The position numbers and the translations under genes are program-made. Below the pieces are notes generated by a model. It had not been told where the DNA came from, made no database searches, and saw only the letters and a program-made list of their open reading frames with translations. 64,000 bases of DNA. Origin: a virus. The stretch is from positions 45,476 through 109,475 of IMG/VR virus record IMGVR_UViG_3300050821_006672, one strand, 5' to 3'. Below, in pieces: positions 22,705 to 39,395 of the stretch. Position 1 is the first letter of the stretch. The number at the start of each line of letters is the position of its first letter.

Positions 22705-23241
22705 ATGGCTGACCGCAAATACCTCCCGACTTTCGCCGATCTCGTTGATAGGCTCTGCATTACGCAGATGAAAGCGATCTTCATCCCTGAACGGCAGGGC
22801 GAATACGTTGAAGAAATGTCGTTGATTATGCATGACATCGATCTTATCTTGGAAAGTCAAGCTAAGACGATTGCCGCTACTGACGTTCGTGCGATGCTTG
22901 TGCTTATGTTGAGCAACCGTTTCATATGGGAGAATGAAACAAAAGCGCGAGCGGGCGGGACGGATCAGGACAAGCTTCTTAAATTGACTCATAGTATAAA
23001 TGGCGTGAGGAATACAGCTAAGAATGCATTGGCCCATATTGATGGCGGTCGGAGAGACTTCAAAACGGATTGCTTTGCTGCGGAGTTAGTTGCTGACTTC
23101 GGTAATTGGAATGTATTTGGAGTGCAGAACGGCGAGGCTCGATGGGAAACCGATCAGAGAAATTATACTCAACTGGCGGATAGACGGGATAAATCTGTGC
23201 ATGGTGGGGCTGGGCGTGTTCTGCCCTCGTCGGATTATTAG
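22705..23241 (+). CDS. Helical protein of the kind seen in sugar-synthesis clusters (DUF4254-like)
   Basis: LPTFADLVDRLCITQMK...IWENE...NGVRN pattern; first gene of the sugar cluster. Confidence 0.5.
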   Translation: MADRKYLPTFADLVDRLCITQMKAIFIPERQGEYVEEMSLIMHDIDLILESQAKTIAATDVRAMLVLMLSNRFIWENETKARAGGTDQDKLLKLTHSINGVRNTAKNALAHIDGGRRDFKTDCFAAELVADFGNWNVFGVQNGEARWETDQRNYTQLADRRDKSVHGGAGRVLPSSDY

Positions 23242-23246
23242 GCAAG

Positions 23247-23861
23247 ATGCTCCAAATCGTAGCTAGAAACCGAATAACGCGCAGCGACTTGCAGGAGTTT
23301 ACGCAGCGCGTTGCCGACGCGTTCAATGCTGGCGAAATCCACGCTCCCGTCCACCTTAGCGGCGGCAATGAAGATCAGCTGATTGATATCTTCTCGGAGA
23401 TCGCTCCAACCGACTGGGTATGCTCAACATGGCGTAGCCATTATCATGCGATCCTCAAAAACATTCCTCAAGAACAACTGATGTCGGACATTCGTGCGGG
23501 ACGCTCGATCTCATTGTGCTATCCAGAACACCGTCTTATTTCCTCGGCAATTGTTGCGGGCTGTTTGCCCATTGCGGTGGGTCTTGCCTGGTCCATCAAG
23601 AATGCCGAGAAGGATGAGCACGTCTGGGCCTTCTGTGGTGATATGGCAGCGACAACCGGAATATTCTCCGAGTGCACTCGATACGCTGAGAGCTATCGCC
23701 TTCCCGTTACGTTCATAATTGAGGATAATGGCAAGTCGGTCTGTACGAATACCAAACAAGTTTGGAACGGACAACACGATAATTGGCAAAGCAATGTGCG
23801 GTATTACTCCTACAAACTGCCATGGCCCCATAGTGGTGCCGGCAAACGAGTGAACTTCTAA
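23247..23861 (+). CDS. Minimal TPP-dependent E1-alpha-like subunit
   Basis: HLSGGNE and STWRSHYHA; TPP-binding motif variant GDMAATTG...IIEDN. Confidence 0.88.
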   Translation: MLQIVARNRITRSDLQEFTQRVADAFNAGEIHAPVHLSGGNEDQLIDIFSEIAPTDWVCSTWRSHYHAILKNIPQEQLMSDIRAGRSISLCYPEHRLISSAIVAGCLPIAVGLAWSIKNAEKDEHVWAFCGDMAATTGIFSECTRYAESYRLPVTFIIEDNGKSVCTNTKQVWNGQHDNWQSNVRYYSYKLPWPHSGAGKRVNF

Positions 23862-23899
23862 CCGGCGAGTGGTGACGCCCCTCTTCCGGGAACAGGAAC

Positions 23900-24484
23900 A
23901 TGAACCTTAACCTTTGGGATTCAAGCAGAGGCACCGTTACAATCGGATTGCCGATGGACCTAGCTGCGGGGGCTTCGCAGACGGTGGCCGGTCAGGTACA
24001 GCTATCTTCTGCTGGGGTAAGCCCCGGTGCGACAGGCGCCGACAACGTGCTGGCTGTTTTCTCAATCCCGCCGGGCTCATTTGCGGCTGCTGGGAACGGG
24101 CTTTACATTGCGGCCTATGGCACATTTGCTAACAACGGCAACAACAAGCGGGTGAAGATCATATTCAATCCTGCAACTGCCGTAGTTGGAGCGACTGTTG
24201 GGGCAGGCGGCACAACTATCGCTGACACAACGACTTACTCCACCTCTGCGCTGTCCGCTTTCACGTTGGAGGCTACAGTTTTCAAATATGGTGCGGCGGG
24301 GAGCAATACGCAGATAGGCATAAATGGTGAAAACACCGTAGCAGCGGTTAGCGAGACCCTCATTGTGCCTCAGCTTATTACTGCAAATGAGGCTGCGGTG
24401 ATTCTCATTGCGGTTACTGGGAATGCTGGATCGGCCGTCGCAGACATCCTATTGAATGCGCTTGCGATAACTCCTATTTCGTAG
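23900..24484 (+). CDS. Ala/Gly/Thr-rich putative virion protein
   Basis: Structural-protein-like composition; sits between the E1 alpha and beta genes. Confidence 0.55.
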   Translation: MNLNLWDSSRGTVTIGLPMDLAAGASQTVAGQVQLSSAGVSPGATGADNVLAVFSIPPGSFAAAGNGLYIAAYGTFANNGNNKRVKIIFNPATAVVGATVGAGGTTIADTTTYSTSALSAFTLEATVFKYGAAGSNTQIGINGENTVAAVSETLIVPQLITANEAAVILIAVTGNAGSAVADILLNALAITPIS

Positions 24485-24494
24485 AGAGGCAGTC

Positions 24495-24791
24495 ATGGCA
24501 AGTTCACTTCCGCTCCAATTGAATGAAGACACTATTCCTGTGCTTCTCGCCAGAATGGGGACCCCCCTCAAAGGCGATGGGCAACTCCACCTTATGGCGG
24601 GCATGGCCTTTCGCGTTGGCGACGTACTGTCTGAGGCGTCTGTTACTGCCATAGTTCCGGCTGTTGTAGCTACTCCCGCCAAGAACGGCATTCCTGCTCA
24701 GAACTTTACGGCGAGCGAGGCTGCTTTGCTTGTAGCGGAATTGCACAATAGAGGGGCGACTGTGGAAAGTAAGGGGAAGAGCAAAAGGTAG
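24495..24791 (+). CDS. Hypothetical protein
   Basis: GAGG RBS; operon-packed. Confidence 0.5.
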   Translation: MASSLPLQLNEDTIPVLLARMGTPLKGDGQLHLMAGMAFRVGDVLSEASVTAIVPAVVATPAKNGIPAQNFTASEAALLVAELHNRGATVESKGKSKR

Positions 24792-25312
24792 TGGGCTACT
24801 TTTCCAACCTCTGCGCTGCGATGCAACTAGTCAGCGAGCATCCGCAGTCTGTCTTTATGGGACAAGCGGTTGCGTGCGAAGGAACGGCTATGTTCCGCAC
24901 GCTCGCTGATGTTCCAATAGAAAAGCGCCTTGAACTACCAGTCGTTGAAGATATGCAGATGGGGATGGCAATTGGCATGTCCCTTAGCGGCCATCTCCCC
25001 GTTTGTATCTATCCAAGGTTCAATTTCCTGCTTCTCGCGCTGAATCAGCTTGTTCTGCACCTCGACAAGCTGCCTTTAATGGGCGATTACAAGCCGAAGG
25101 TGCTTGTCAGAACGGCTGTAGCAACCTCGAAGCCGCTTTACCCTGGGCCGCAGCACATCGGAAACTACACGACTGCGCTCGCACATATGCTGGATACAGT
25201 AGCTATTGACCGGCTTGAGCACGCAGATGATATTGTCCCCGCGTATGAAAGAGCGTTGGGGCGCGACGGTTCGACGCTCTTAATCGAATATCATGAGAAA
25301 TACGACGCTTAG
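24791..25312 (+). CDS. TPP-dependent E1-beta / transketolase pyrimidine-binding subunit (no C-terminal domain)
   Basis: FMGQAV, ELPVVEDMQMGMAIG, NQLVLHLDK and GPQH motifs. Confidence 0.85.
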   Translation: MGYFSNLCAAMQLVSEHPQSVFMGQAVACEGTAMFRTLADVPIEKRLELPVVEDMQMGMAIGMSLSGHLPVCIYPRFNFLLLALNQLVLHLDKLPLMGDYKPKVLVRTAVATSKPLYPGPQHIGNYTTALAHMLDTVAIDRLEHADDIVPAYERALGRDGSTLLIEYHEKYDA

Positions 25313-25320
25313 GGAGGTGC

Positions 25321-26091
25321 TTGGTGATACCTCGGAATAAAGACACGCTCTTCTATTTCAATGCGCTTAGGCTGTTGCCGCGACGCGCCTATGGCGTTGT
25401 ATACTTACTTACGAACATAGACACGGGGCGATCTTATGTAGGGCAGACTACACAAGCCGTTCCTTTTGATCGAATATTTACACATCGAAAGAGCGCCCTA
25501 AGCGGGAATAGCAGTAACATCCTGCATCGGGCCATACGAAAGTACGGTTGGTCGGCATTTCGAATTGAAATTATTGCCAACTGCGATAACCGAAAAGCGT
25601 TGGATGCTGCTGAAGCGTATTTTATTGAACTATACCAGACGATGTCCCCAAACGGCTATAATATGAAGCATGGGGGTGCCAAAGGGCGATTTTCTGAACA
25701 ATTTAAGCGCAAGCTTCGAAGAGTCCACTCTGCTCCTAAAGTCAGCCAAAAGCATCGAGAAACTATCACTGCATGTTGGGCCGACCCAGCGCATATGGCG
25801 AAGCTAAAAGTAACTTGGAAGGTCAAAAATGCTTTGTCGGCTCCCGCACGCGCAGAAAAGAAGCGTGTTAAAAGGGAAGCGTGGATAGCTACTAAGCCCG
25901 AGCGCCTTGCTAAGAAAAATGCAGCTATAAAAGCTGCGCATAGCAGGCCTGAGGTAAAAGAAAAAGTCGGACGTGGTACAAGAAATAGCCGATGGATTTG
26001 TAGGGGGATAGCGTCGCAACGATTAAAGCTGGGAGAACCCCTTCCTAAGGGTTGGAATTTCGGAAGGGGAGCTTCTTATGAGCGCTCGTGA
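25321..26091 (+). mobile_element. Free-standing GIY-YIG homing endonuclease
   Basis: GVVYLLTN...SYVGQT, LHRAIRKYG, E-x-x-FI and GYN motifs; basic C-terminal DNA-binding region. Confidence 0.85.
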
Positions 26092-27211
26092 ATTTTGGTT
26101 TCCTACTGGGTTCAAATATTGGGGAGTGGAAGAAGACGAAGCCATTGCTAGAGTGATATCTAGCGGCTGGTTTACATACGGCAAAGAGGTTGCAGCTTTT
26201 GAAGAAGAGTACGCTGCTTACCACAAGCGCAAGTATGCGGTTATGGTGAATAGCGGCAGTTCCGCTAACTTGATTGCTGTAGCTGCTCTTTGTAATTTGC
26301 GATCTCGAAAGCCGTTATCCCGCGGGGATACGGCCCTTGTTCCCGCGGTTGCTTGGTCAACAACCTATGCTCCCTTAATACAGCACGGTCTAGAATTGCG
26401 GCTGCTTGACGTAGACGATACTTGGAATGCATATCCTTATGGGGGTACTGAGTCCTTTAGGCTAATCGTCGGGTGCTCCATATTAGGTAGTCCTGCTCGA
26501 CTGGAAGAATGCCAAAAGTTTGCCAACCGTAACGGAGCGTATTTCATCAATGATGACTGCGAATCTCTAGGTGCCTCGATTGGAGGACGAACAACCGCAT
26601 CTTTCGGTTTGATGGCAACCAGTAGTTTCTTCGCTTCCCATCAGATATCTGCTATCGAGGGCGGCGCTATTTTGACAGATGAGGATGAATGCTATAGACT
26701 TTGTCGTATGCTGCGCAGCCATGGGTGGACGCGAGACGTTGAGCCTCCAAAGAACTTTGATGAAGAATATTCGTTCGAACTTTTCGGTCTAAATGTTCGT
26801 CCAGTCGAGATGCACGCGGCTATAGCTCGGGAGCAGTTGAAGAAGCTTTCACATATGATCGATGCACGTCAGAAGAACTTGGATCATTTTTGGAGGCTGA
26901 TGCAGGGCCTACCAATCGCATTGCAGGGTCATTATCTAGGGACTAAGCGATCGTCCTTTGGCATCGCCTTTACGGTAGCGAACAAGAACATTCGATCTAA
27001 GCTGGCCGACGCGCTACGCGCTGAGGATATTGACTGTCGCTTACCCACGGGAGGGTCATTCCGTATGCATAAGTATGGTGAGCGGTGGAGAGCGCAGGCA
27101 ACGCCTAATGCTGACCGCATCCACGAGACTGGGTTGTTCCTTGGGCTTGCGCCGTTCCCAATTGAGGATAAAATCGAGCGTGCTGTGAATGTTATGAAGG
27201 GGGTATTGTGA
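26078..27211 (+). CDS. DegT-family PLP enzyme, ColD-like NDP-4-keto-6-deoxyhexose 3-dehydratase
   Basis: VNSGSSANL, DDCESLGA, SFFASHQISAIEGG (His at the usual Lys position), RSHGWTR and NVRP motifs. Confidence 0.82.
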   Translation: MSAREFWFPTGFKYWGVEEDEAIARVISSGWFTYGKEVAAFEEEYAAYHKRKYAVMVNSGSSANLIAVAALCNLRSRKPLSRGDTALVPAVAWSTTYAPLIQHGLELRLLDVDDTWNAYPYGGTESFRLIVGCSILGSPARLEECQKFANRNGAYFINDDCESLGASIGGRTTASFGLMATSSFFASHQISAIEGGAILTDEDECYRLCRMLRSHGWTRDVEPPKNFDEEYSFELFGLNVRPVEMHAAIAREQLKKLSHMIDARQKNLDHFWRLMQGLPIALQGHYLGTKRSSFGIAFTVANKNIRSKLADALRAEDIDCRLPTGGSFRMHKYGERWRAQATPNADRIHETGLFLGLAPFPIEDKIERAVNVMKGVL

Positions 27212-27445: not shown

Positions 27446-27757
27446 GTGGTGATGTTAAGCAGATTTTGGTTTTGGGTTAATCGTATTGACATAATTTCGG
27501 AGGCTGAGGGCGAAGACTGGGCGCGTGAGTGGATGCGAGAACACGGTTGTAAGTGGAACGGGTTTTGTAGTTACTGGTTCAAATGGGAAGAGGTGCTTAA
27601 TGATGAGGTTCGACAAGGATTAAAGCCTGAGCCGCTTTTATGGCAAATTCAACGCGAGAGTACGCAGCGAAAACGTAGGCGTCGCGATAAATACGATTGC
27701 TGGGATCGGCTAATCGGTAACGACCTCTTCGATACCATTCACGGTGGTATTTTCTGA
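27446..27757 (+). CDS. Hypothetical protein
   Basis: Stop overlaps the start of the next gene. Confidence 0.45.
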   Translation: MVMLSRFWFWVNRIDIISEAEGEDWAREWMREHGCKWNGFCSYWFKWEEVLNDEVRQGLKPEPLLWQIQRESTQRKRRRRDKYDCWDRLIGNDLFDTIHGGIF

Positions 27758-28731
27758 TGCGCTGTTTGATAACTGGCGGCGCTGGCTTCATCGGTAGCGT
27801 TCTCGTCCCCTCCCTTCTCAACGAAGGCTTCGCTGTTACTGTCGTTGATAACTTTATGTATGGCAACTCGCTATCGCTAGCGGCTTGTTGTACCCATTCC
27901 AAATTCGACGTTATCCGAGGCGATGCGCGCGATCCAAGGGTAATCGGCCCGCTGCTCGCTAAGCACGATGTAATTATTCCCCTTGCTGCGATCGTCGGCG
28001 CTCCTGCTTGCGATAACGATGTGTGCGCTACGGGGACAACGAATGTCGTTGCTATCGAGAATATGGTATCGAAGCTTTCCGCCGACCAATGGATTATCGC
28101 GCCTATCACTAACAGTGGCTATGGGATCGGTTCGCAGGACGAGTGCACCGAGGAATCGCCTCTGAACCCCGTCAGTCTTTACGGAAAGTCAAAGGTCGAA
28201 GCAGAGAAGGCAGTTCTCAGCCACAAGAATGGGATTAGCCTGCGCCTTGCGACGGTGTTTGGTATGTCGCCTCGGATGCGTCGTGACCTGCTGGTGAACG
28301 ATTTTGTCTGGCGTGCTGTAACCGACCGCGCGGTGACGTTGTTTGAGGCCCATTTCCGCCGTAACTACGTGCACGTGCGAGATGTGGCTAGGGCCTTTTT
28401 GCATGTATTTAGCTGTTTTGCTGGTGAGGAAAATAAGTATCTAGCAGTTCTTCCTCCTGTGGGCCTTCCGCTTGCGTCAGGCGCTTACAACATTGGTCTT
28501 AGCGATGCCAATCTGTCCAAGCTCCAGCTTTGCGAAAAGATCAAAGAACACGTTCCCGGCTTTGTGTTCTGGGAAGCGCCTGTGGGTGAGGATGCGGACA
28601 AGCGCGATTACGTCGTAAGCAACAAGAAGATCGAAGCCACTGGATTTCGATGTGAGTACAGCCTGGACGACGGTATTCGCGAGCTAGCCAAAGGCTATCG
28701 GATGATGCGGAGGGAGTACTCGAATGTATAA
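27757..28731 (+). CDS. NAD-dependent epimerase/dehydratase/reductase (extended SDR)
   Basis: TGGAGFIG, LAAIVG, YGKSK and LRLATVFG motifs. Confidence 0.92.
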   Translation: MRCLITGGAGFIGSVLVPSLLNEGFAVTVVDNFMYGNSLSLAACCTHSKFDVIRGDARDPRVIGPLLAKHDVIIPLAAIVGAPACDNDVCATGTTNVVAIENMVSKLSADQWIIAPITNSGYGIGSQDECTEESPLNPVSLYGKSKVEAEKAVLSHKNGISLRLATVFGMSPRMRRDLLVNDFVWRAVTDRAVTLFEAHFRRNYVHVRDVARAFLHVFSCFAGEENKYLAVLPPVGLPLASGAYNIGLSDANLSKLQLCEKIKEHVPGFVFWEAPVGEDADKRDYVVSNKKIEATGFRCEYSLDDGIRELAKGYRMMRREYSNV

Positions 28732-29041
28732 GCTCGTATTCAAAGTCATCGATGATGAAACAAAAGAAGATGTCTTTCCCTATCAGCAGACATTGCTTGA
28801 ATTGTCCGAGGACATTTTACGCAAGGCCGACGAGAAAGACGCCGATGCGATCAAGAAAGAAATTGAACTCCTAGGCGGGCAAGAGATGTATGCTACCTAT
28901 GTCCGTAACGGACGAGGTAGAGTGGTTAGAGATATTTGCCAAGCTGCTGGGATCATCGTTAGCAGAGTCATTGAGAGGCATTTAGCTACTCGTCTTGGTT
29001 GTAAGCACATTGCGCTGCTTGATAAGGCGAAGGAGCGGTGA
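28724..29041 (+). CDS. Hypothetical protein
   Basis: GGAG RBS; overlaps the previous stop. Confidence 0.55.
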   Translation: MYKLVFKVIDDETKEDVFPYQQTLLELSEDILRKADEKDADAIKKEIELLGGQEMYATYVRNGRGRVVRDICQAAGIIVSRVIERHLATRLGCKHIALLDKAKER

Positions 29042-29077: not shown

Positions 29078-29332
29078 GTGAGTATTAAGCTAGCCAAGCC
29101 TGAGCACGAGGTTCTTTATCAGGATTTGTGTAATCTTGTTGGTAAGCACGGGGATAAAGTTGATGCATTTGAAATGCTGGCGATTGCGGCGAATATGATA
29201 GGCAAGCTTATTGCTATGCAGGACCAGAGGAAGATTACAAGGGAAATGGCGCTAGATTTGGTAATTCGGAATATTGAAGAAGGGAATAAACAAGTGCTGG
29301 AGCAGCTACATAATACTGTTGGGCGAGGGTAA
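29078..29332 (+). CDS. Hypothetical protein
   Basis: 84 aa, helical; operon-packed. Confidence 0.55.
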   Translation: MSIKLAKPEHEVLYQDLCNLVGKHGDKVDAFEMLAIAANMIGKLIAMQDQRKITREMALDLVIRNIEEGNKQVLEQLHNTVGRG

Positions 29333-29336
29333 ACAG

Positions 29337-31920: not shown

Positions 31921-32819
31921 GAGTTGTCGTCCTTACTACTCACACTAACAACACGCCGATCTTGTATTCGGCGCTGGCGGCAAGTCGTAGTGTTTCCGTC
32001 ATCACTTACGATCGAATGCACTCTTTCGACTATTTGTCGGAACAGGTGGAGCAACTCAATCCCGACTGGGTTCTCTACATCGGCGCTATTCCCGAACACC
32101 ATCGCTTGCGTGTTCCGTCTATTCCCGAGTTGAAGGCAATCCAACGCAAGAAAGTTCACTTATGCTGTGATGGTGCTGACGATGCGTGGTGGTCTCTTCT
32201 GGGTGATTACCATACCCACAACGTCTTCGATTTGCAGATCAATATTGATGGTGTGAAAGCCGGACCTATTGGCGATCACGGCTGGACGACTATCGCCCCG
32301 ATCGATCCTTCAGGCTTTGGCGAGCCCATTCCCTGGTCGCAGCGTAAGACGTTCGCAGGCTTTGCAGGATTAGTGATGGGGGGTGACCGTGCTGAGACGT
32401 TACGAGCCCTAGTCGCCAAAGATTTGATTACTTACCGCTCTCGCGATGAAAAAGGCTCTGGCGATTATATCAGTTGGTTGAAGGATTGCTGCGTAATTTG
32501 GAATCATCCCGAGACCGGGGGAATGAAATCTCAGCACGTCAAGGCTCGTGTAATTGAAGCGGCGTTGGCTGGATGTCTTGTGCTGGAGAAATTGGGTTCG
32601 CCCTTAGAAAATTGGTTTGAACCGGGAATTGAATACTTTGAATGGATAGACGTTGAGCAGATTGTCTTGATATTGGATTGGGTTAAAGAGAACCCCTCCT
32701 ATGCTGAGAGCCATGCGCGTAGAATGCGTAATAAAATACTTACTCAGTACAACGTCGAGACTTTCTGGCAGCGTGTCGAGCGGCGGATAGGAGTTAGGGA
32801 TTTGGAATGCGTGGCTTGA
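31917..32819 (+). CDS. Glycosyltransferase (CgeB/Glyco_trans_1_2-like)
   Basis: HVKARVIEAALAGC...WFEPGIEY C-terminal GT-B motif. Confidence 0.8.
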   Translation: MRVVVLTTHTNNTPILYSALAASRSVSVITYDRMHSFDYLSEQVEQLNPDWVLYIGAIPEHHRLRVPSIPELKAIQRKKVHLCCDGADDAWWSLLGDYHTHNVFDLQINIDGVKAGPIGDHGWTTIAPIDPSGFGEPIPWSQRKTFAGFAGLVMGGDRAETLRALVAKDLITYRSRDEKGSGDYISWLKDCCVIWNHPETGGMKSQHVKARVIEAALAGCLVLEKLGSPLENWFEPGIEYFEWIDVEQIVLILDWVKENPSYAESHARRMRNKILTQYNVETFWQRVERRIGVRDLECVA

Positions 32820-33691
32820 TTTTTACGACCGGTTCTCGCGATACCGAGAAGATGTATCAATCTTTTACCTACCAATATCCAGACTCTATGGTTGTCCAAT
32901 ACGACAAGCCTAACCTTGATATGGTGCACATTGCTCAGTCGTTTAGGCCGGATATTATCGTTTGGATTGGCGCGCATCGCGGCTCGCATCACATTCCCGG
33001 CGTGCGTCCAGTTCCCGATACGGCAGAACTCGTGCGCGTTGGACGGGTTGCGCCGATGGTTCATCTGTGTCCGGACTCAGGCGACACGCCTTGGTGGCCT
33101 GAGATCGAGGATTTCCATCGGGCCGGTGCTTTCCGTCTTCAAGTAGGAATTGATGGGTGCCACGACTCGCCTATCGCCAGCTTCGGGATGGTAGCGCTTA
33201 CCCCAATTGATCCCGCTTTCTTCCCTGATGTGCCTTGGGAGCATAAAATCTACAGATGCGGTTTCTCTGGCGGCGGGGGCTTTCGAGAGCAGATGCTTAA
33301 TGGTCTTCAACAAAGAGGCTTTTTGACCCGCTTTCAGGATAGTTCCTACAAGGATATGTGCATTTCCTACACACAGTGTAAACTGATCCTTAACGATGCA
33401 CGGACGGGCACAGGCACCAAGCGCCACGTCAAGGGAAGGTTTGTAGAGGCTGCATTAGCCGGCGCGGTTCCTATTGAGCCCCACGATGCCCCGACGCATA
33501 ATTGGTTCAAGCCCGGTGAAGAGTACTTGGTGTGGGCGAACGAAGGCGAAATTGAAGCGCATATTGGCAGAGTGCCTGAGTTAGACGAACAGTATCGCGC
33601 TATGGCTGCGAACCTGCGCAAGCGTATGATAGAAGAGCACTCGGCCCCCGTGTTTTGGGGCAAGGTGCTTAAAAGGATGGGGTTGCAATGA
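32807..33691 (+). CDS. Glycosyltransferase, paralogue of 31917..32819
   Basis: HVKGRFVEAALAGA...WFKPGEEY; shares VHLCxD and QxxIDG. Confidence 0.8.
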   Translation: MRGLIFTTGSRDTEKMYQSFTYQYPDSMVVQYDKPNLDMVHIAQSFRPDIIVWIGAHRGSHHIPGVRPVPDTAELVRVGRVAPMVHLCPDSGDTPWWPEIEDFHRAGAFRLQVGIDGCHDSPIASFGMVALTPIDPAFFPDVPWEHKIYRCGFSGGGGFREQMLNGLQQRGFLTRFQDSSYKDMCISYTQCKLILNDARTGTGTKRHVKGRFVEAALAGAVPIEPHDAPTHNWFKPGEEYLVWANEGEIEAHIGRVPELDEQYRAMAANLRKRMIEEHSAPVFWGKVLKRMGLQ

Positions 33692-33854: not shown

Positions 33855-35021
33855 TTGATCTTCAACTTTTCGCTTTACAACTACACTCCTGGCGGCTTTG
33901 GGACGTATGAGGATATCATTCGTCCAATCAAAGCTATTCTGGAGGATTTGGGGCACGTCGTTACCCGTGATAATACGCTGCATCCGCCCCCGATTATCAA
34001 CATCCTGTTTGAAGGCTTCGACCAGCCAGTTAACCTAGATGTTCTTAAGCGGGCTCGCGCTGTTGGGTACCGTTTTGTGCTTGTGGCAACAGAAATGCCT
34101 ACCCACAAGACAGACCATTCATTCTATTGGAACGATCATCGCATTACGTATTGGCTGGATCGAGCGAGCGGGTTCGTTGTGGCGCTGCCTTACGCTGATG
34201 CTGTTTGGTGTGTGGTTCAAGGAACTGCTGAGTACCTTCGCAAATTTCATCCCCATACGGCCGATATTGAGTTGGGGTATAGTCCTCGACTGGTAAATTC
34301 AACCCGTGTTGAACCTCATTACAACTTTTGTATCTATGGCTCGCCTTCTGAACGACGTTTCGAGATTACGGCTCAGCTGCGTAGTAGAGGGCACGGAGTA
34401 ATTGAGAACTACACATTTCCCTTTGTTGAAGAGCGTAATCGCCTAGTGTTATCATCGCGGGTTGTTTTGGACGTCAAGCTTAAGCCTCACCTAACAGTTG
34501 TTTCTACGTCACGCATCGTTACGTCACTCCATCTGGGCCGGCCTTGCATCTCGGAACCGCGCGGACCAGAAGCTACCCAAGTGCAGCGGTGGAAGCGCGC
34601 TACGAGGTTTGCTTACAGTGACGATACGTTTATCGATGAGGCTATTTCTATGTTGCCTCACTGGAGAGAGGGCCATCGCGAGCAGTTCGAGGCTCTAAGA
34701 AACATGCAGGCGATTGACATTCTCAACGACGCAGTCAAGATTATCCCCGACAAATTCCCCGACGTTGTCGAGGGTGTATTTCAGATGCCGTTGCCTGGGA
34801 AGGTGCTAACTATCCATCAAGCTTCTGCGCCAGATAGCGCAAGTCCATATTTGCTGTGTTCTTACAACTACCACAATATAGTCGCTTATGGGCACGAGTA
34901 CTTTGTGATACCGCAGGGGATTGGTGAGGTCAATCTAGCATTAGCGATTGATCGCGCTCGGCCTGGCATCCAGCGTTTTCCTTCCGAGCACGAGGCTAAG
35001 ATGGCTGTGGGGGCGATATGA
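33855..35021 (+). CDS. Putative glycosyltransferase with C-terminal accessory domain
   Basis: ATEMP, FCIYGSPSERR and STSRIVTSLHLGRPCISE motifs; paralogue of 38379..39395. Confidence 0.7.
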   Translation: MIFNFSLYNYTPGGFGTYEDIIRPIKAILEDLGHVVTRDNTLHPPPIINILFEGFDQPVNLDVLKRARAVGYRFVLVATEMPTHKTDHSFYWNDHRITYWLDRASGFVVALPYADAVWCVVQGTAEYLRKFHPHTADIELGYSPRLVNSTRVEPHYNFCIYGSPSERRFEITAQLRSRGHGVIENYTFPFVEERNRLVLSSRVVLDVKLKPHLTVVSTSRIVTSLHLGRPCISEPRGPEATQVQRWKRATRFAYSDDTFIDEAISMLPHWREGHREQFEALRNMQAIDILNDAVKIIPDKFPDVVEGVFQMPLPGKVLTIHQASAPDSASPYLLCSYNYHNIVAYGHEYFVIPQGIGEVNLALAIDRARPGIQRFPSEHEAKMAVGAI

Positions 35022-36040
35022 AGGTCGGGTTGGCAAATCAATTAGAACCTACTCGGTTCGACGAAGCGGTCGCTTTGGGCGAGCGGATTATTGAGTCCGT
35101 AGAGACGCGACCTCAGCTTATTGAAAAACTTGGCGTTGATCCTAGGTTTGGCTTTCCTGATGCAAATTGGCATCCTAAAGAGCAAAACGATTTCCGCGAG
35201 GGATACAATCTTCTTGCTACGCTCAAATGGGACGAGGTCAAATACTTGCGCTTTCGGGCGCAGAATTTCAATGGGTTTAGCTTACTGCATATGGCCTATG
35301 GTGTTGGGAGTTCTAGTGAGCCAATACCTGTTGACTACGATACGCGGTTGTCAGAAGAGTGTTTGGATGACTTGGTTGGACGTTGGCGTGAGAGAATTAC
35401 GGGGCTTCCTCTTCAATTTATATTTCGTCCAAAAGCAATGCTTGGCGAGGTTGGCTGGCAATGGTTTGATGCTTCGGTTACGGGTGTACTGATCAATGCC
35501 GACACTGTTGCGTATCAGGAGCGGATGTTTTTACTGTACAATGGTGCATTGCTGGAAACCCCGGATAAGGTATTAGAGATTGGTGGGGGGTATGGAGCAC
35601 TTGCCTACGCCATAACTAACGGCCTTCCTGAAACCGAGTATTGGATTTGTGACTTGCCTGAGTCGCTTCTGTTCTCTGGCTTGTACTTGACGATGACTAC
35701 GAATCGAGATGTAAAGCTTTGGCCTGAACGCGGCTCAATCACGCTAGTCCCTAATTATCTATTCGGACAGATCAAAGACAAATTCGATTTGTTTATCAAC
35801 ACACTTTCTCTAGCCGAGATGACTGAATATCAGGTTAGGATGTACGTGCAAGGAATACGCGACCTGATGAGCCCTGGAGCTAAGTTCTTCGAACAGAACC
35901 ACCTCAACAACGATCTACCGGACGGTACTCACCAAGCTACAGTGAAGCAGATTTGTGCTGAGACATTCTCGGGAAGGACTAGCCTTCTTCATACGCCTTT
36001 TGAGATACTCAACGGTCCTGCCGACGTGTGGAGTACGTAA
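35018..36040 (+). CDS. Putative sugar O-methyltransferase (SAM-dependent)
   Basis: VLEIGGGYGALA, ICDLPESL and DLFINTLSLAEM motifs. Confidence 0.82.
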   Translation: MKVGLANQLEPTRFDEAVALGERIIESVETRPQLIEKLGVDPRFGFPDANWHPKEQNDFREGYNLLATLKWDEVKYLRFRAQNFNGFSLLHMAYGVGSSSEPIPVDYDTRLSEECLDDLVGRWRERITGLPLQFIFRPKAMLGEVGWQWFDASVTGVLINADTVAYQERMFLLYNGALLETPDKVLEIGGGYGALAYAITNGLPETEYWICDLPESLLFSGLYLTMTTNRDVKLWPERGSITLVPNYLFGQIKDKFDLFINTLSLAEMTEYQVRMYVQGIRDLMSPGAKFFEQNHLNNDLPDGTHQATVKQICAETFSGRTSLLHTPFEILNGPADVWST

Positions 36041-36807
36041 TGGCTGACGCTCCCGATCCGCTTTTCCTTTTGCAGCAGGACGGCATTTACGTGCCGTCTG
36101 AGCCTGTACTATCTCTAACGCAGGCTTTCGAATTCCGTTCCTATCTCAGCAGCGTCCCGGTTTACAGGCATCACATAGCGGGCAAGGCGACGGAGTCAGC
36201 CCCTAATTTTGCAACGGCCTGGAAACAGGGATGGTCAGTGTTCGCTCCTAAGACGGAAGACGTCATCAAAGCGCCACACTGGTTCGAAACTGCGCTATCC
36301 TACATGTCCCTTGCCAAAGCCTATTTTCGTCAGCAGCCGCGTATGTATTCGATAAGCGCCTTCTGGACGACGCCGGCTGAAGGTCCGTTGTATGGCGATA
36401 CGCAGACTTGGCATCGCGATCAGGATGACAAGTTCCAAATGACGCTGTTTATGTTGGGCTCTGATGTGCCCGATCCTTCTGAGGGGGCGCACTTATATCA
36501 GCGGGGTACGCATAGGACACCTGACGCAGACTTAGGGCGTGACCCTCCTTCGCCGCCCCCCTGCGGTATCGTTTCTACTGTCTACGGGCCTGCTGGAACG
36601 CTCGTCGTTGCAGATACCTGGGGATTACACAAGGCCATTAGGCCAGCTAAGCTGCCCCGCTTACTTGTGTGGGCACGGTATGCAGTCGCCAATCCGCCCT
36701 TCACGTATGTTAACGATGGGCTCGCTCCGGTGAGTAGGGATTTGTTGGGCGACCGCTATCCGACCGATCCGGAGCTTCAGGAAGCAGTGAGGCTTGTCGC
36801 GGTATAG
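36040..36807 (+). CDS. Fe(II)/2-oxoglutarate dioxygenase (PhyH-like)
   Basis: WHRD...GTH...GPAGTLVVADTWGLH facial triad. Confidence 0.8.
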   Translation: MADAPDPLFLLQQDGIYVPSEPVLSLTQAFEFRSYLSSVPVYRHHIAGKATESAPNFATAWKQGWSVFAPKTEDVIKAPHWFETALSYMSLAKAYFRQQPRMYSISAFWTTPAEGPLYGDTQTWHRDQDDKFQMTLFMLGSDVPDPSEGAHLYQRGTHRTPDADLGRDPPSPPPCGIVSTVYGPAGTLVVADTWGLHKAIRPAKLPRLLVWARYAVANPPFTYVNDGLAPVSRDLLGDRYPTDPELQEAVRLVAV

Positions 36808-36984
36808 AGCGGGAGAGGCCCTACAATGGGACCGACAGAACTTAATAGCAGTATTTCTTTTCTTGAGAAATCAGTTAGGAACCTTATCCAAGAGGTTGTG
36901 CGGCTAGAAAAACGTATTGAAACCTTGGAAAGGGAACGCCGTCCTACAGACGCGATTTCTCCAACTCATTGGATAAGCGGGTAA

Positions 36985-37509
36985 ATGGCTACGATCCACG
37001 GTGGTGATAAGCTTAGGAACGCGCTAGTCAAGTTGACGCGCAACATCTCTAACGGCGCGACGCTGCATGTGGGCTTCTTGTCTGGTGCTACTTATCCCCA
37101 GCAAGCAAGGGCTGCGCTGCGAGCGCGCTATGCTAAGCGACGAAAGAAAGGTGTACAGGGAGCAGTAAAGGGTTCTGCTGGAGGTGTATCTGTAGCAATG
37201 ATTGCTGCGATACAGGAATTTGGTGCTCCTAGCCGCAATATCCCCCCGCGTCCGTTCTTTCGGAACATGGTAAAAAACAAGAGTAAAGAATGGCCTGCGG
37301 CGATAGCTGCTCTGTTGAAGGCAAACAACTACGATGCAAAGAGAACATTGGAGTTGACAGGGCAGGCGATTGCCGGTCAATTGCGGCAAAGCATAGTTGA
37401 TACGAATAGCCCGCCGCTGAAGGCCACTACAGTTAAACGGAAGGGGTTTGCCAAGCCCCTTGTTGATACTTCGCACATGCTCAATTCAGTTGACTATGAG
37501 GTCAAATAA
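36985..37509 (+). CDS. Neck / tail-completion protein
   Basis: IQEFGA, IPPRPFFR and KPLVDTSHMLNSV motifs. Confidence 0.8.
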   Translation: MATIHGGDKLRNALVKLTRNISNGATLHVGFLSGATYPQQARAALRARYAKRRKKGVQGAVKGSAGGVSVAMIAAIQEFGAPSRNIPPRPFFRNMVKNKSKEWPAAIAALLKANNYDAKRTLELTGQAIAGQLRQSIVDTNSPPLKATTVKRKGFAKPLVDTSHMLNSVDYEVK

Positions 37510-37700
37510 TGGAGGAGGTTGCTATGGTGTGTGAATATGTTTCCGCCGACCTCGGGCCGTGTCCGTACTGTCATCGGTGTGGAGATGTTTTGGAGAAGAA
37601 CGGAAATACTTTATCCTGTCCCGGATGTGGGGCAGTTCGCGATTGGGCGGATAAAGTCGCCGCCCGGCAGGCAATAAGAAAGTTGGAGCGTCTGCGATGA
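37509..37700 (+). CDS. Small zinc-ribbon protein
   Basis: CPYC, CHRC and CPGC motifs. Confidence 0.5.
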   Translation: MEEVAMVCEYVSADLGPCPYCHRCGDVLEKNGNTLSCPGCGAVRDWADKVAARQAIRKLERLR

Positions 37701-37983
37701 TCCCCCGCAAACCAACTCCGACCGAGCCTGACTATCGCGTCCTCCGCGGCTGCTGGGTAGGCAGCGGTATGGCCTGCCGCGTATGGTATATTCAAGGCGG
37801 TCAGGTCCGTATGGTTTTCTCAAGTGGTATGTCGGAATGGGAAATCCACAAAGCGATTATGGAAGCGAGACGATGAATATTTTTGGGTATTTTGTAATGC
37901 TTGTGGTAGGAGTAACGTGGATTTTAGTACTTGCCTTAGCTGGGCGAGTGATTTTGGATCATATACCCAAAAGATAAGATACT

Positions 37984-38178
37984 ATGAACGAGCGCAATGG
38001 AAATACCGATACGCGCCGACCGAGAATGGTAGCGCAGGCGACGCAGACATATGAAGATGCATTTCCCTATCCCTCGCCTAGCGAGATGCGCGATTTGCTG
38101 TCTAAGCTTCTGACTGAGCAGATCAAGACGAATTTGCTTTTGGCGAAGATCGAGAAGCTTTTGGTGGATGGTGCCTAA
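37984..38178 (+). CDS. Hypothetical protein
   Basis: 64 aa; abuts the next ORF. Confidence 0.45.
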   Translation: MNERNGNTDTRRPRMVAQATQTYEDAFPYPSPSEMRDLLSKLLTEQIKTNLLLAKIEKLLVDGA

Positions 38179-38382
38179 ATGCGCGAATGGCTTGTGATTG
38201 AAAAGACTATTAGTCGATCTCCATTTGCGAGGGACGAAGAGCGCAAGCCGTCGGGGTACATACCCCGCGACGCTGCTGAGGCGTTGTTGGGACGCGATCT
38301 TGGTAAGGTGACTTTCTTTCGGCGAGACGAAAGTGAAAAGATGCGTCAGCATCCTGAGTGGTGTGAGGCTTTAGACGAATGA
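38179..38382 (+). CDS. Hypothetical protein
   Basis: 67 aa; ATGA overlap with the next gene. Confidence 0.45.
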   Translation: MREWLVIEKTISRSPFARDEERKPSGYIPRDAAEALLGRDLGKVTFFRRDESEKMRQHPEWCEALDE

Positions 38383-39395
38383 GCGTCTTTCTCGTTTGGT
38401 TAGGAAATCACACTCCAACGGGCCAGCGCTCGCTTGAAGATGTTGTCGGAATTTTCGGCCATCAACTTCGTGCTCTAGGTCACGAATGCATTTGGGACCC
38501 AAAGAACGATCAGTTCCTTACTCAGGATATGGGCTACAATATCATTGTCGAAGGCTTTACTGATGCGTCCATCTCCCTTATCGGTGCAGCTCACCAACAA
38601 GGCGCGCGTTTTATATGTATAGCTACAGAGGAACCGACGCCAAAAGGCTTCAATCACGGCCGCGACCGCGAGATGGTAATGCGCCAGGAAAAGTTCCCGA
38701 TGGCGGCGCAGTTCTTCGATGCGATATTTCACCTAGTCCCGGGGAATCATATAACGAACTGGTACGCTCAATATGCGCCTTCGGCTTACGTTGAACTTGG
38801 TTACGCCCGAACGCTCTATCGCCCTGATATTTGGCCTTTGTCTCTGCAGGAGCCTGTATACAACTTTGGGTTCTTCGGTTCGCTCACCCCACGTCGCCTT
38901 AAGATACTCAAGCGCCTAGCGCGGGCGATAGGGACGAAAGATGCTGTACGAATAGAAGCAACTTTCGCTACGCAGGAAGAGCGCGATAGAATCATGCGCG
39001 AGGCACGGGTAATCGTCCAGCTTCGCAAACATGAGGAGATGGGCCTTGTCTCTAGTTCTCGTTGCAACACTGCTCTGCATCTCGGTCGTCCCGTCGTTGC
39101 CGAGCCTCATCTTTTGGCTGATCAATGGAATAGCATCGTCAAATTCTCGCAACATTGTGACGCCTGCGCCTCCGGACAAACAGTCAAACGGTCGCGTAAC
39201 GAGGTCTGCGACCGGTGCGTCGAAAACTTCATTAACGATTGTCTCCTGGCCCAGGCAATGTGGAAAGGCTTGCACGGTACGCAATTTGCGGCGTTCAAAG
39301 AGCGCATGACACCTGAGTACTGTGTCGGTCGCGCGTTGAAGGAAGTAGGACTGCGTCTGACTGTAAATTCACCGTTGAAAGTCTTCGCGGCCTAG
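38379..39395 (+). CDS. Putative glycosyltransferase with CxxC..CxxC insertion
   Basis: ATEEP, FGFFGSLTPRR and SSSRCNTALHLGRPVVAE; CDAC...CDRC. Confidence 0.7.
   Translation: MSVFLVWLGNHTPTGQRSLEDVVGIFGHQLRALGHECIWDPKNDQFLTQDMGYNIIVEGFTDASISLIGAAHQQGARFICIATEEPTPKGFNHGRDREMVMRQEKFPMAAQFFDAIFHLVPGNHITNWYAQYAPSAYVELGYARTLYRPDIWPLSLQEPVYNFGFFGSLTPRRLKILKRLARAIGTKDAVRIEATFATQEERDRIMREARVIVQLRKHEEMGLVSSSRCNTALHLGRPVVAEPHLLADQWNSIVKFSQHCDACASGQTVKRSRNEVCDRCVENFINDCLLAQAMWKGLHGTQFAAFKERMTPEYCVGRALKEVGLRLTVNSPLKVFAA

What the first reader, a model, noticed from the sequence alone, without database searches (positions are those of the whole stretch)
22705..39395. Complete-looking branched-deoxysugar synthesis and transfer cluster inside the head-neck operon: candidate virion glycosylation system
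Seen between the DUF4054 adaptor and neck genes: minimal TPP E1-alpha/beta, a His-type ColD-like PLP dehydratase, an extended SDR, a B12 radical SAM enzyme, an alpha/beta hydrolase, four glycosyltransferase-like genes (two paralogous pairs), a sugar O-methyltransferase and a 2OG-Fe dioxygenase. Established: 3-dehydratases give 3,6-dideoxy-4-keto NDP-sugars, and TPP enzymes add C-branches at C4 (yersiniose-type chemistry). Inference: the phage makes an unusual branched, methylated or oxidised sugar from a host NDP-4-keto-6-deoxyhexose (no nucleotidyltransferase is visible). The late, structural context favours decoration of virion proteins over DNA or host LPS modification.
Basis: partly seen in the sequence, partly recalled or inferred. 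Interest (0 to 1): 0.8.

Follow-up and report, generated by a model that had tools for sequence, protein, structure and literature searches.

The report
Phage heptose-sugar island in neck operon
A complete 109-kb lytic-type phage carries, between its head-adaptor and neck genes, a 14-kb set of enzymes that most likely turns a heptose sugar nucleotide into an unusual deoxy, carbon-branched sugar, plus four transferases, probably to coat its own particle, and the core enzyme set is an uncharacterised pathway shared with hundreds of bacteria.

Summary

The chemistry is partly revised. The SDR is 58% identical to Cj1427, the GDP-heptose C4-dehydrogenase. The core set is this SDR, a His-type ColD-like 3-dehydratase, a minimal split ThDP enzyme and a B12-radical-SAM enzyme. 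It recurs in 53 viral contigs and at least 252 bacterial genomes. In bacteria it sits beside HddA, HddC, GmhA and L-2-hydroxyglutarate oxidase genes. The likely substrate is therefore an NDP-heptose oxidised at C4 by the phage enzyme, not a host 4-keto-6-deoxyhexose. This phage has no sugar-activation genes of its own.

Virion glycosylation is plausible but unproven. One GT-B gene lies between neck genes and is a fixed member of the head-neck operon in about 30 related uncultured phages. The heptose module sits at different places inside that operon, or elsewhere in the genome. I found no integrase, no membrane glycan machinery and no hydroxymethylase.

The boldest reading still open is that the module makes a caryose-type carbocyclic nonose.

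The scan noted this same stretch again in an overlapping window of the same genome, not on other DNA.

The parts
22705..23241 (+). 178-aa phage-specific helical protein that travels with the heptose module in phages; function unknown
   Evidence: Homologs lie next to the module in 23 of 53 viral loci and in no bacterial locus. It is 55-67% identical in lineage relatives. Only virus-only clusters appear in the Atlas. The sole Pfam hit is a sub-threshold SnoaL_4 match.
23247..23861 (+). Minimal ThDP-binding subunit (E1-alpha/PP-domain-like, 204 aa)
   Evidence: PF00676 1e-13 and PF02775 4.5e-6. PDH E1-alpha TIGR03182 7e-24, far below its cut-off. Invariant GDM...IIEDNGKS ThDP motif. Fused to the beta part in cyanophage S-SM2.
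23900..24791 (+). Two unassigned ORFs (194 aa, rich in Gly/Ala/Thr/Ser and beta-like; 98 aa) that split the two ThDP subunit genes
   Evidence: No Pfam, NCBIfam or PHROG hit. The 194-aa protein has homologs in L146 and L151, in L151 inside the head module. E1a and E1b are adjacent in nearly all other loci.
24791..25312 (+). Minimal pyrimidine-binding subunit (E1-beta/PYR-domain-like, 173 aa)
   Evidence: PF02779 4.8e-4, below its cut-off. NF006667 2.6e-5. Present in all 133 related loci. Conserved ...ELPVVEDMQMG... with the Glu invariant.
25321..26091 (+). GIY-YIG homing endonuclease (selfish insert, not part of the pathway)
   Evidence: PF01541 1.2e-7. TIGR01453 1.7e-15, above its cut-off. 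Absent from related loci.
26078..27211 (+). ColD-type PMP-dependent NDP-4-keto-sugar 3-dehydratase
   Evidence: PF01041 5e-58. PDB ColD 3e-65 against E1/RfbH 7e-30. His at the ColD His188 position. His is near-universal at this position in the module's DegT family.
27446..27757 (+). 103-aa unassigned ORF
   Evidence: No hit in Pfam or NCBIfam.
27757..28731 (+). Cj1427-type NDP-heptose C4-dehydrogenase (extended SDR)
   Evidence: PDB 6VO6/6VO8 1e-92. [quoted passage not shown]
28724..29041 (+). 105-aa unassigned ORF
   Evidence: No hit.
29274..30854 (+). B12-binding (class B) radical SAM enzyme; C-C cyclase or C-methyltransferase
   Evidence: PF02310 6e-17 and PF04055 3.5e-18. Best NCBIfam hits are HpnJ (155 bits) and BchE (135 bits), both below their cut-offs. 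Conserved CPFKCHFC. Present in 46 of 53 viral and 53 of 80 bacterial loci.
30851..31210 (+). 119-aa ORF of unknown function that follows the radical SAM gene
   Evidence: phrog_5845 1.2e-18, function unknown. A homolog follows the radical SAM gene in L146.
31207..31920 (+). Alpha/beta-hydrolase-like protein (tentative)
   Evidence: PF12697 0.007, below its cut-off. GLSSG nucleophile-elbow motif. About 40% homologs in G001, L147 and L157.
31917..33691 (+). Two tandem paralogous CgeB/PF13524-type glycosyltransferase-like genes
   Evidence: PF13524 1e-8 and 8e-10. 32% identical to each other. Homologs lie in the same operon in relatives.
33855..35021 (+). GT-B glycosyltransferase paralog of the core neck-operon GT
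   Evidence: 28% identity, 4e-29, to 38379-39395. Homologs lie beside the module in bacterial loci L088, L124 and L126.
35018..36040 (+). NanM-type sugar O-methyltransferase
   Evidence: TIGR04371 1.3e-20, 74 bits against a cut-off of 44. Weak PF00891.
36028..36807 (+). PhyH-like Fe(II)/2-oxoglutarate dioxygenase
   Evidence: Atlas feature score 0.97 and structure TM 0.84 to PhyH clusters. Invariant H129-x-D131...H201...R211. Weak profile hits to Fe/2OG hydroxylases in the PDB. No Pfam hit.
36985..37509 (+). Neck1/tail-completion connector protein (structural gene inside the reported interval)
   Evidence: phrog_222 6e-45. Conserved beside the adaptor or collar genes in all relatives.
37509..38382 (+). 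Four small ORFs (63-67 aa), one with a zinc-ribbon motif and one with a single hydrophobic segment
   Evidence: ORF list, sequences, hydropathy.
38379..39395 (+). Core GT-B glycosyltransferase of the head-neck operon
   Evidence: AlphaFold pLDDT 87. Foldseek and VIA top matches are all GT-B enzymes, Z about 18 over 1-328. At least 503 homologs at 53-93% identity in metagenomes. None in 50,697 GenBank phage records or in PHROGs. Fixed between Neck1 and the collar gene in relatives.

Best explanation
The island is a phage-encoded nucleotide-sugar tailoring and transfer system, probably co-transcribed with the head-neck genes.

Shown by homology: five core proteins, which form four enzymes.
- A Cj1427-type dehydrogenase.
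- A His-type ColD-like 3-dehydratase.
- A two-subunit minimal ThDP enzyme.
- A B12-radical-SAM enzyme.

Inferred sequence of steps:
1. A host NDP-D-glycero-D-manno-heptose (GDP- or ADP-linked) is oxidised at C4. The tightly bound NADH is recycled with 2-oxoglutarate.
2. The ColD-like enzyme removes the C3 hydroxyl, using glutamate and releasing 2-oxoglutarate. The product is a 3-deoxy-4-keto-heptose.
3. The ThDP enzyme decarboxylates a 2-oxo acid, probably pyruvate, and adds the acyl anion to the C4 ketone. This makes a C4-acyl-branched sugar.
4. The radical SAM enzyme then either closes a ring or C-methylates.
5. An O-methyltransferase, a PhyH-like dioxygenase and a hydrolase-like protein tailor the sugar or its acceptor.
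6. Four soluble GT-B-type transferases attach the sugar or sugars.

Most likely target (inferred, about 45-50%): exposed virion proteins, modified in the cytoplasm during assembly. Under this reading the coat would alter receptor interactions or recognition, or stabilise the particle.
For: Enzyme identities.

Heptose substrate:
- The module co-occurs with HddA-like kinase in 50 of 80 bacterial loci and 25 of 53 viral loci.
- HddC-like guanylyltransferase is present in 40 bacterial loci, GmhA in 15 and GT9 heptosyltransferase in 9.
- L-2-hydroxyglutarate oxidase is present in 11 bacterial and 3 viral loci. Cj1427 reduces 2-oxoglutarate to L-2-hydroxyglutarate (PMC10680097).
- The lineage relative G002 has HddC-like and HddA-like genes directly after its module.
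- Cyanophage S-SM2 has the fused ThDP enzyme inside a heptose cluster.

Precedents:
- Cj1427 plus the HS:5 C3-dehydratase make GDP-3-deoxy-4-keto-heptose in vitro (PMC10680097).
- Two-subunit ThDP branching is proposed for AviB1/AviB2 and Pau11/Pau12 (PMC4753412).
- ThDP addition to 3,6-dideoxy-4-keto sugars is shown for YerE and ErwE (PMC9306805).

Virion target:
- The last GT-B gene lies between Neck1 and the collar gene.
- The same GT-B is a fixed operon member in about 30 related contigs. The heptose module is inserted before Neck1 or after the GT-B in about 12 of them, and lies elsewhere in the genome in G002, G409 and G411.
- The complete DTR genome has no integrase and no ThyA-type hydroxymethylase or C5-methyltransferase.
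- No polytopic membrane protein is encoded in the island.
- Virion glycosylation by GTs encoded beside structural genes is known in mycobacteriophages (Freeman et al. 2023, as cited in PMC12619734).
Against: - No experiment or expression data exist, and promoter and terminator scans are at chance level.
- The acceptor cannot be read from the GT-B fold. T4 DNA alpha-glucosyltransferase, PimA, TarM, BshA and SdgB all tie at Z about 18.
- In most of the 53 viral loci, including S-SM2, the module is not in a structural operon. The module itself is therefore not tied to virions.
- The head-neck junction also holds a homing endonuclease and variable cargo, so it may simply be an insertion hot spot.
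- This phage has no sugar-activation genes and its host is unknown.
- The ThDP subunits are far shorter than AviB1/B2-type E1 subunits and score below the curated family cut-offs.
- The role of the radical SAM enzyme is not determined.
Confidence: 0.5

Rival explanations
1. The same pathway is used to remodel the host cell surface (LPS, capsule or another envelope glycan) during lytic infection. Possible purposes are blocking superinfection or stopping progeny from sticking to debris. The position in the structural operon would only reflect late timing or an insertion hot spot.
For: The module is a surface-polysaccharide-type cassette in bacteria. It lies beside GT9 heptosyltransferase and GT2 genes and is present in only 4 of 401 genomes of one family. 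In most viral loci and in cyanophage S-SM2 it sits away from structural genes, among nucleotide-metabolism or other genes. Phage GTs that change host serotype are well known (PMC12619734).
Against: The island has no flippase, polymerase, GtrA/B-like or other polytopic membrane protein. The genome has no integrase. The GT-B gene is as conserved as the capsid gene and fixed between neck genes across the lineage.
Confidence: 0.22
2. One reading: the pathway starts from a host NDP-4-keto-6-deoxyhexose and gives a yersiniose-like C4-branched 3,6-dideoxyhexose. The SDR would act as a reductase or epimerase.
For: ColD acts naturally on GDP-4-keto-6-deoxymannose. YerE-type chemistry acts on 3,6-dideoxy-4-keto hexoses (PMC9306805). 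The phage has no heptose-activation genes.
Against: The SDR is 58% identical to Cj1427 over its full length and much further from reductases, 4,6-dehydratases and epimerases (E 1e-92 against 1e-20 or weaker). HddA, HddC, GmhA and L-2-hydroxyglutarate oxidase accompany the module. No 4,6-dehydratase is part of the conserved module.
Confidence: 0.1
3. The transferases glycosylate phage DNA (a hypermodified base) to evade restriction.
For: T4 DNA alpha-glucosyltransferase is among the tied best structural matches of the core GT-B. A dioxygenase-plus-GT gene pair recurs, which superficially resembles TET-plus-GT DNA modification systems. The genome also carries 7-deazaguanine genes according to another first-stage note, which I did not check.
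Against: The complete genome has no ThyA-family hydroxymethylase and no C5-cytosine methyltransferase. The dioxygenase looks PhyH-like rather than TET/JBP-like. The genes lie in the late morphogenesis operon, not with the replication genes.
Confidence: 0.07
4. The island is passenger cargo in a recombination hot spot. It would make a soluble glycoconjugate or modify host proteins, with no link to the virion.
For: The content between adaptor and collar varies widely among relatives, from 0 to about 23 kb. G001 has an extra 12 kb of unassigned genes there, and the window has a homing endonuclease.
Against: The GT-B and the heptose module co-occur at genome level across the lineage even when they are unlinked. 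The module re-appears inside the same operon in two different arrangements.
Confidence: 0.1

Closest known systems
Campylobacter jejuni capsular heptose modification (Cj1427 C4-dehydrogenase plus HS:5 ColD-like C3-dehydratase)
   Same: The SDR is a close homolog of Cj1427 (1e-92, TM 0.84-0.91). The dehydratase is a His-type ColD-like enzyme. Together the two C. jejuni enzymes give GDP-3-deoxy-4-keto-heptose in vitro (PMC10680097). The module is associated with HddA, HddC and GmhA.
   Different: C. jejuni follows with epimerases and C4-reductases. It has no ThDP or radical SAM step, and the Cj1427-plus-dehydratase combination was an artificial mix. Here the two are naturally linked and followed by C-C bond-forming enzymes.
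ThDP-dependent C4 acyl-branching of deoxy-keto sugars (YerE/ErwE; AviB1/AviB2 and Pau11/Pau12)
   Same: A 3-dehydratase is partnered with a ThDP enzyme. The two-subunit E1-alpha/beta-like organisation resembles that proposed for AviB1/B2 (PMC4753412). Ketone acceptor chemistry is established for YerE and ErwE (PMC9306805).
   Different: This is not the YerE (acetolactate-synthase-like flavoprotein) family. The subunits are only 204 and 173 aa, about half the size of E1 subunits, and score below the family cut-offs. The acceptor is probably a heptose rather than a 3,6-dideoxyhexose. No YerF-like branch reductase is in the conserved set.
Mycobacteriophage virion glycosylation (Freeman et al. 2023, cited in PMC12619734)
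   Same: Glycosyltransferase genes are embedded in the virion structural operon of a phage.
   Different: Those phages use host sugar donors and attach glycans to the C-termini of capsid and tail-tube subunits. Here a multi-step sugar pathway is also phage-encoded, the host is probably Gram-negative, and neither acceptor nor glycan has been observed.
Heptose or 'LPS' gene clusters of T4-like cyanophages S-SM2 and P-TIM68
   Same: The same ThDP enzyme is present at 38-41% identity, fused into one 402-aa protein in S-SM2. It lies among heptose isomerase, kinase, adenylyltransferase, SDR and GT genes.
   Different: The cluster is not in the head-neck operon and includes its own heptose activation genes. 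Its function is likewise unknown.
[quoted passage not shown]
   Same: The carbon count and functional groups match what the four conserved enzymes could build from a heptose. 3-deoxy would come from the dehydratase. C8-C9 with a terminal methyl at C4 would come from ThDP plus pyruvate. The C7-C8 ring closure would come from the radical SAM enzyme. Caryose biosynthesis is stated to be unknown (PMC9092360).
   Different: This is purely a retro-biosynthetic inference. I could not examine the B. caryophylli genome, and the radical SAM enzyme could equally be a methyltransferase.

Membership tests
ColD-type PMP-dependent NDP-4-keto-sugar 3-dehydratase | DegT/AAT type-I fold with His in place of the Schiff-base Lys (ColD His188) | tested here: met
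   PF01041 5e-58. The alignment to ColD places ...FFASHQISAIEGG with His opposite His188, and the H188N and H188K mutant chains confirm the column.
ColD-type PMP-dependent NDP-4-keto-sugar 3-dehydratase | Closer to ColD (glutamate-recycled) than to E1/RfbH (needs the E3 reductase) | tested here: met
   ColD 3e-65 against E1 7e-30. A bacterial module member gives 9e-53 against 4e-32.
ColD-type PMP-dependent NDP-4-keto-sugar 3-dehydratase | C3 deoxygenation activity on an NDP-4-keto sugar | not testable with these tools
   Needs an enzyme assay.
Cj1427-type GDP-heptose C4-dehydrogenase | Full-length sequence and fold similarity to Cj1427, well above other extended SDRs | tested here: met
   1e-92 against 3e-20 or weaker for the next family. 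Foldseek 9e-36 and TM 0.84-0.91 to 6VO6/6VO8, with titles naming Cj1427.
Cj1427-type GDP-heptose C4-dehydrogenase | Genomic association with GDP-heptose synthesis (GmhA, HddA, HddC) | tested here: inconclusive
   Met in bacterial loci and in the relative G002. Not met in the window's own genome.
Cj1427-type GDP-heptose C4-dehydrogenase | Ping-pong recycling of bound NADH with 2-oxoglutarate | not testable with these tools
   Indirect support only: L-2-hydroxyglutarate oxidase lies next to the module in 14 loci.
Two-subunit ThDP E1-type sugar-branching enzyme (AviB1/AviB2-like) | ThDP-binding GDG...NN-type motif in the alpha part and a PYR domain with the activating Glu in the beta part | tested here: met
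   Invariant GDM-x25-EDNG. Conserved Glu in ...VVEDMQMG.... The two parts are fused in S-SM2.
Two-subunit ThDP E1-type sugar-branching enzyme (AviB1/AviB2-like) | Full-length E1-alpha (about 320 aa) and E1-beta (about 330 aa) architecture, reaching the curated family scores | tested here: not met
   204 and 173 aa. TIGR03182 scores 84 bits against a cut-off of 394. PF02779 scores 20 bits against a cut-off of 27. It is a distinct minimal family.
YerE-type ThDP flavoenzyme | Acetolactate-synthase-like three-domain architecture | tested here: not met
   The best Pfam hit is E1_dh. There is only a weak TPP_enzyme_C match and no N or M domains, and the enzyme is split into two small proteins.
Class B (cobalamin-binding) radical SAM | N-terminal B12-binding domain plus a radical SAM core with CxxxCxxC | tested here: met
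   PF02310 6e-17 and PF04055 3.5e-18. CPFKCHFC is conserved.
Class B (cobalamin-binding) radical SAM | Reaction type (methyl transfer or carbocycle formation) | not testable with these tools
   The best hits, HpnJ and BchE, are both below their cut-offs. The PDB neighbours AprD4, TsrM and NocN are uninformative.
GT-B glycosyltransferase | Two Rossmann-like domains matching solved GT-B enzymes over the full length | tested here: met
   Shown for 38379-39395: pLDDT 87, and all top Foldseek and VIA matches are GT-B, Z about 18 over 1-328. 33855-35021 is its paralog. The two PF13524 genes reach the Pfam cut-off.
Phage virion glycosylation system | GT genes inside the virion structural operon | tested here: met
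   The GT-B lies between Neck1 and the collar gene, and this is conserved in relatives.
Phage virion glycosylation system | Glycan demonstrably attached to virion proteins | not testable with these tools
   Needs virion glycoproteomics.
PhyH-like Fe(II)/2OG dioxygenase | HxD...H facial triad with a 2OG-binding Arg, and family profile match | tested here: inconclusive
   The triad and Arg are invariant. Atlas gives 0.97 and TM 0.84. PDB profile hits are only E 0.015-0.14. Pfam PhyH gives no hit.
NanM-type sugar O-methyltransferase | Score above the NCBIfam TIGR04371 cut-off | tested here: met
   74 bits against a cut-off of 44.

The most novel reading that the evidence does not exclude
The conserved enzyme set is the missing biosynthetic pathway for caryose-type carbocyclic nonoses. 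It comprises the Cj1427-like dehydrogenase, the ColD-like 3-dehydratase, the minimal split ThDP enzyme and the B12-radical-SAM enzyme.

Proposed route:
1. NDP-heptose is oxidised to the 4-keto sugar.
2. The 4-keto sugar is deoxygenated to 3-deoxy-4-keto.
3. The ThDP enzyme adds an acetyl unit from pyruvate at C4, supplying C8 and the C9 methyl.
4. The radical SAM enzyme closes the ring by joining C7 to C8.
5. The product is a 4,8-cyclo-3,9-dideoxy-nonose.

Under this reading the pathway is widespread: at least 252 bacterial species in many phyla, and at least 50 phage contigs including cyanophages. A whole lineage of uncultured 70-130-kb myoviruses would use it, with a dedicated neck-operon glycosyltransferase, to coat their virions with a carbocyclic sugar.
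Probability: 0.25. Interest if true: 0.9.

Novelty: new variant of a known kind. Interest (0 to 1): 0.72.

Why it matters
- Virion glycosylation is documented for mycobacteriophages using host sugars. A phage of a probably Gram-negative host that makes its own exotic sugar next to its neck genes would extend that biology. It would also bear on phage immunogenicity, stability and host recognition.
- The analysis uncovers an uncharacterised enzyme module that is widely distributed in bacteria and phages. Its first two steps have direct biochemical precedent. Its last two steps predict a C4-branched or carbocyclic heptose-derived sugar.
- This gives a concrete, testable candidate for caryose biosynthesis, which is described as unknown (PMC9092360).
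- It also offers a functional reading of the long-unexplained heptose clusters of cyanophages such as S-SM2.

Tried and rejected
- Megablast of the island against 50,697 phage records gave no match.
- tblastn of the core GT-B and of the 65-aa repeat domain against the same records gave no match. The repeat-domain query may have been masked as low complexity.
- An Rfam gathering scan of the window found nothing, so there is no sign of a group I intron around the GIY-YIG gene.
- Promoter and terminator scans and direct-repeat searches across 17-43 kb were at chance level with no shared motif.
- phmmer and profile searches of the GT-B family against PDB sequences gave no hit. Only fold comparison worked.
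- Full-text searches for the PDB codes 6VO6 and 6VO8 failed, and the Cj1427 structure paper is not held. The identity was settled through entry titles in Foldseek.
- The search for homologous proteins on the SDR returned only generic names.
Context came from the search for related loci instead.
- I considered a phosphonate or sulfopyruvate-decarboxylase reading of the small split ThDP enzyme. I rejected it because the hits are to E1/transketolase-type domains and the module is always linked to sugar-nucleotide enzymes.
- I considered that most module DegT proteins, about 28% identical to the window's, were aminotransferases. I rejected this because nearly all carry the His and match ColD best.
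- My recollection that erwiniose and caryophyllose are chain-extended heptoses was wrong. They are long-branched hexoses (PMC9306805).
- I could not test the caryose idea on the Burkholderia (Trinickia) caryophylli genome.

Full report
**Setting.** The window is the last 64 kb of a 109,475-bp single-contig virus record with direct terminal repeats, rated 100% complete. The structural genes around the finding resemble those of the XM1 and E217-type contractile-tailed phages:
- XM1 gp53-like minor capsid protein, 17747-18742
- major capsid protein, 18760-19878
- DUF4054 adaptor, 20709-21140
- Neck1/tail completion protein, 36985-37509
- E217 gp28-like collar protein (weak match), 39697-40071
- neck terminator, 40180-40944
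- DUF3383 sheath, 40960-42900

The capsid protein is at most about 50% identical to any cultured phage. The island has no nucleotide match in 50,697 phage records.

**Observation.**
- The PLP enzyme matches ColD at 3e-65. Its His aligns with ColD His188, and the H188N and H188K mutant entries fix the column.
- The radical SAM enzyme has a B12-binding domain and a conserved CxxxCxxC motif.
- The O-methyltransferase passes the NanM cut-off.
- The 259-aa protein is PhyH-like by language-model and structural neighbours. It has an invariant HxD...H...R signature, although Pfam does not detect it.
- The two GT pairs are true paralogs, at 32% and 28% identity.
- The 338-aa member folds as a GT-B enzyme: pLDDT 87, and all best matches are GT-B at Z about 18.

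The interval also contains a GIY-YIG homing endonuclease, a bona fide neck gene, and roughly nine unassigned ORFs.

**The SDR changes the chemistry.** It is 58% identical over its full length to PDB 6VO6/6VO8 (1e-92). [quoted passage not shown] Cj1427 oxidises C4 of GDP-heptose and recycles its tightly bound NADH by reducing 2-oxoglutarate to L-2-hydroxyglutarate (PMC10680097). The phage therefore encodes its own 4-keto-forming step, and that step does not remove the 6-hydroxyl.

**A conserved module.** I searched with the small ThDP alpha subunit.
- The search found 53 viral contigs and at least 252 bacterial genomes from many phyla, some on contigs of 0.7-4 Mb.
- In almost all of these, the alpha and beta subunits, a DegT-family protein, the Cj1427-like SDR and the B12-radical-SAM enzyme lie together.
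- The DegT proteins are only about 28% identical to the window's. Nearly all nonetheless carry the His and match ColD far better than any aminotransferase.
- Neighbouring families in the bacterial loci are HddA-like kinase (50 of 80), HddC-like guanylyltransferase (40), GmhA (15), heptosyltransferase (9) and L-2-hydroxyglutarate oxidase (11, plus 3 phage loci). The oxidase scores 540 bits against a cut-off of 299.
- The oxidase is exactly what a Cj1427-type ping-pong enzyme would need to regenerate 2-oxoglutarate.
- The ColD-type step itself releases 2-oxoglutarate from glutamate (PMC10680097). The two steps may therefore be coupled; this is inference.
- In cyanophage S-SM2 the two ThDP parts are fused into one protein inside an annotated heptose cluster.
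- The lineage relative G002 has HddC-like and HddA-like genes directly after its module.
- The window's own genome has none of these activation genes. It must therefore draw on a host NDP-heptose pool.

These co-occurrence figures are conditional on having searched with the ThDP subunit. Some single-cell or MAG contigs may themselves be viral.

**Proposed pathway.** The first two steps, C4 oxidation and then C3 deoxygenation, have a direct in-vitro precedent: Cj1427 plus the HS:5 dehydratase give GDP-3-deoxy-4-keto-heptose (PMC10680097).

The ThDP enzyme has the cofactor motif and the activating Glu. At 204 plus 173 aa it is much smaller than E1 subunits and scores below the curated cut-offs, so it forms a distinct minimal family. 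Its most likely role is addition of an acyl anion to the C4 ketone. That chemistry is established for YerE and ErwE (PMC9306805) and proposed for the two-subunit AviB1/AviB2 and Pau11/Pau12 enzymes (PMC4753412).

The radical SAM step is open. It may be a C-methylation. Alternatively, its best though sub-threshold family hits are HpnJ and BchE, both of which form five-membered carbocycles. On that reading a C7 radical would add to the new C8 carbonyl. The second option would give a 4,8-cyclo-3,9-dideoxy-nonose. This is the skeleton of caryose, whose biosynthesis is stated to be unknown (PMC9092360). The fit is exact in carbon count and deoxy positions and needs no extra enzyme, but it is an inference only.

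**Target.** In the window the last GT-B gene sits between Neck1 and the collar gene.
- Its family has at least 503 metagenomic members at 53-93% identity. It has none in GenBank phages or PHROGs.
- In 35 related viral loci the minimal operon reads capsid, g20014, DUF4054, Neck1, GT-B, collar, terminator, sheath.
- The heptose module is inserted before Neck1 in some relatives and after the GT-B in others. In G002, G409 and G411 it lies elsewhere in the genome.
- The GT-B is therefore a core morphogenesis-operon gene, and it is linked to the module at genome level.
- The complete genome has no integrase, no ThyA-type hydroxymethylase and no C5-methyltransferase. The island encodes no polytopic membrane protein.

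These points favour a soluble cytoplasmic acceptor made late, such as virion proteins, over lysogenic serotype conversion or hydroxymethyl-pyrimidine DNA glycosylation. They do not prove it. The fold ties with DNA, lipid, teichoic-acid and protein GTs. Regulatory scans are uninformative. In most other phages the module is not in a structural operon.

**Possible acceptors (speculative).** A domain of about 50 aa occurs eight times in five virion proteins: the 1600-aa protein, the minor head protein, the neck terminator, the sheath and a 554-aa protein. It is present throughout the GT-B lineage. That co-occurrence is inherited rather than independent.

**Verdict.** The system is a new variant of known kinds, namely phage-encoded glycan synthesis and virion-operon glycosyltransferases. 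It also exposes an uncharacterised and widespread sugar pathway.

Noticed in passing
window 25321-26091: A GIY-YIG homing endonuclease gene sits between the ThDP beta subunit and the ColD-like gene and overlaps the ColD-like start. It reaches the 'group I intron endonuclease' NCBIfam cut-off, but Rfam finds no intron. It is absent from all related loci.
   Followed up: partly
window 5857-5997, 18287-18634, 40435-40587, 41491-41823, 55302-55655: Eight copies of a beta-rich domain of about 50 aa (LTV..SG.L..G..v.G.G....T.I..QLSG..GG.GTY.V..SQ) are inserted in five virion proteins. The same domain is found in the minor head, terminator and sheath genes of nearly all lineage relatives. It is a possible surface-exposed acceptor or adhesin domain.
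   Followed up: partly
window 23900-24791: Two unassigned ORFs split the ThDP alpha and beta genes, which are adjacent in nearly all of the 133 other loci. The 194-aa product is rich in Gly/Ala/Thr/Ser and looks beta-structural. Its homolog in L151 lies inside the head module.
   Followed up: partly
bacterial loci such as L097:14480-15679; phage loci L046, L048, L049: An L-2-hydroxyglutarate oxidase gene (540 bits against a cut-off of 299) lies next to the module in 11 bacterial and 3 phage loci. This fits recycling of the by-product of a Cj1427-type dehydrogenase.
   Followed up: partly
L144:9251-10900, L147:9273-10927, L175:9259-10855 (G002 68.8-70.5 kb): A PhyH-like dioxygenase gene immediately precedes a copy of the GT-B gene in several relatives, which suggests a hydroxylate-then-glycosylate pair.
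   Followed up: no
G001 30.1-41.9 kb (L137:15130-19999, L138:1-6780): The closest complete relative has an extra 12 kb between the radical SAM and hydrolase-like genes. It encodes large proteins of 498, 568, 735 and 786 aa with no Pfam hit, plus a TylF-type methyltransferase just beyond that block, after the hydrolase-like gene (L138:7588-8337).
   Followed up: partly
window 14529-17732: A 1067-aa protein combines an N-terminal NUDIX domain with a DUF2213 (prohead protease/scaffold-type) domain.
   Followed up: no
L142 (Synechococcus phage S-SM2, 149421-150629): In this cultured cyanophage the two ThDP parts are fused into one 402-aa protein annotated as 'transketolase central region-containing'. 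It lies within a 20-kb heptose and GT cluster. P-TIM68 has the same gene.
   Followed up: partly
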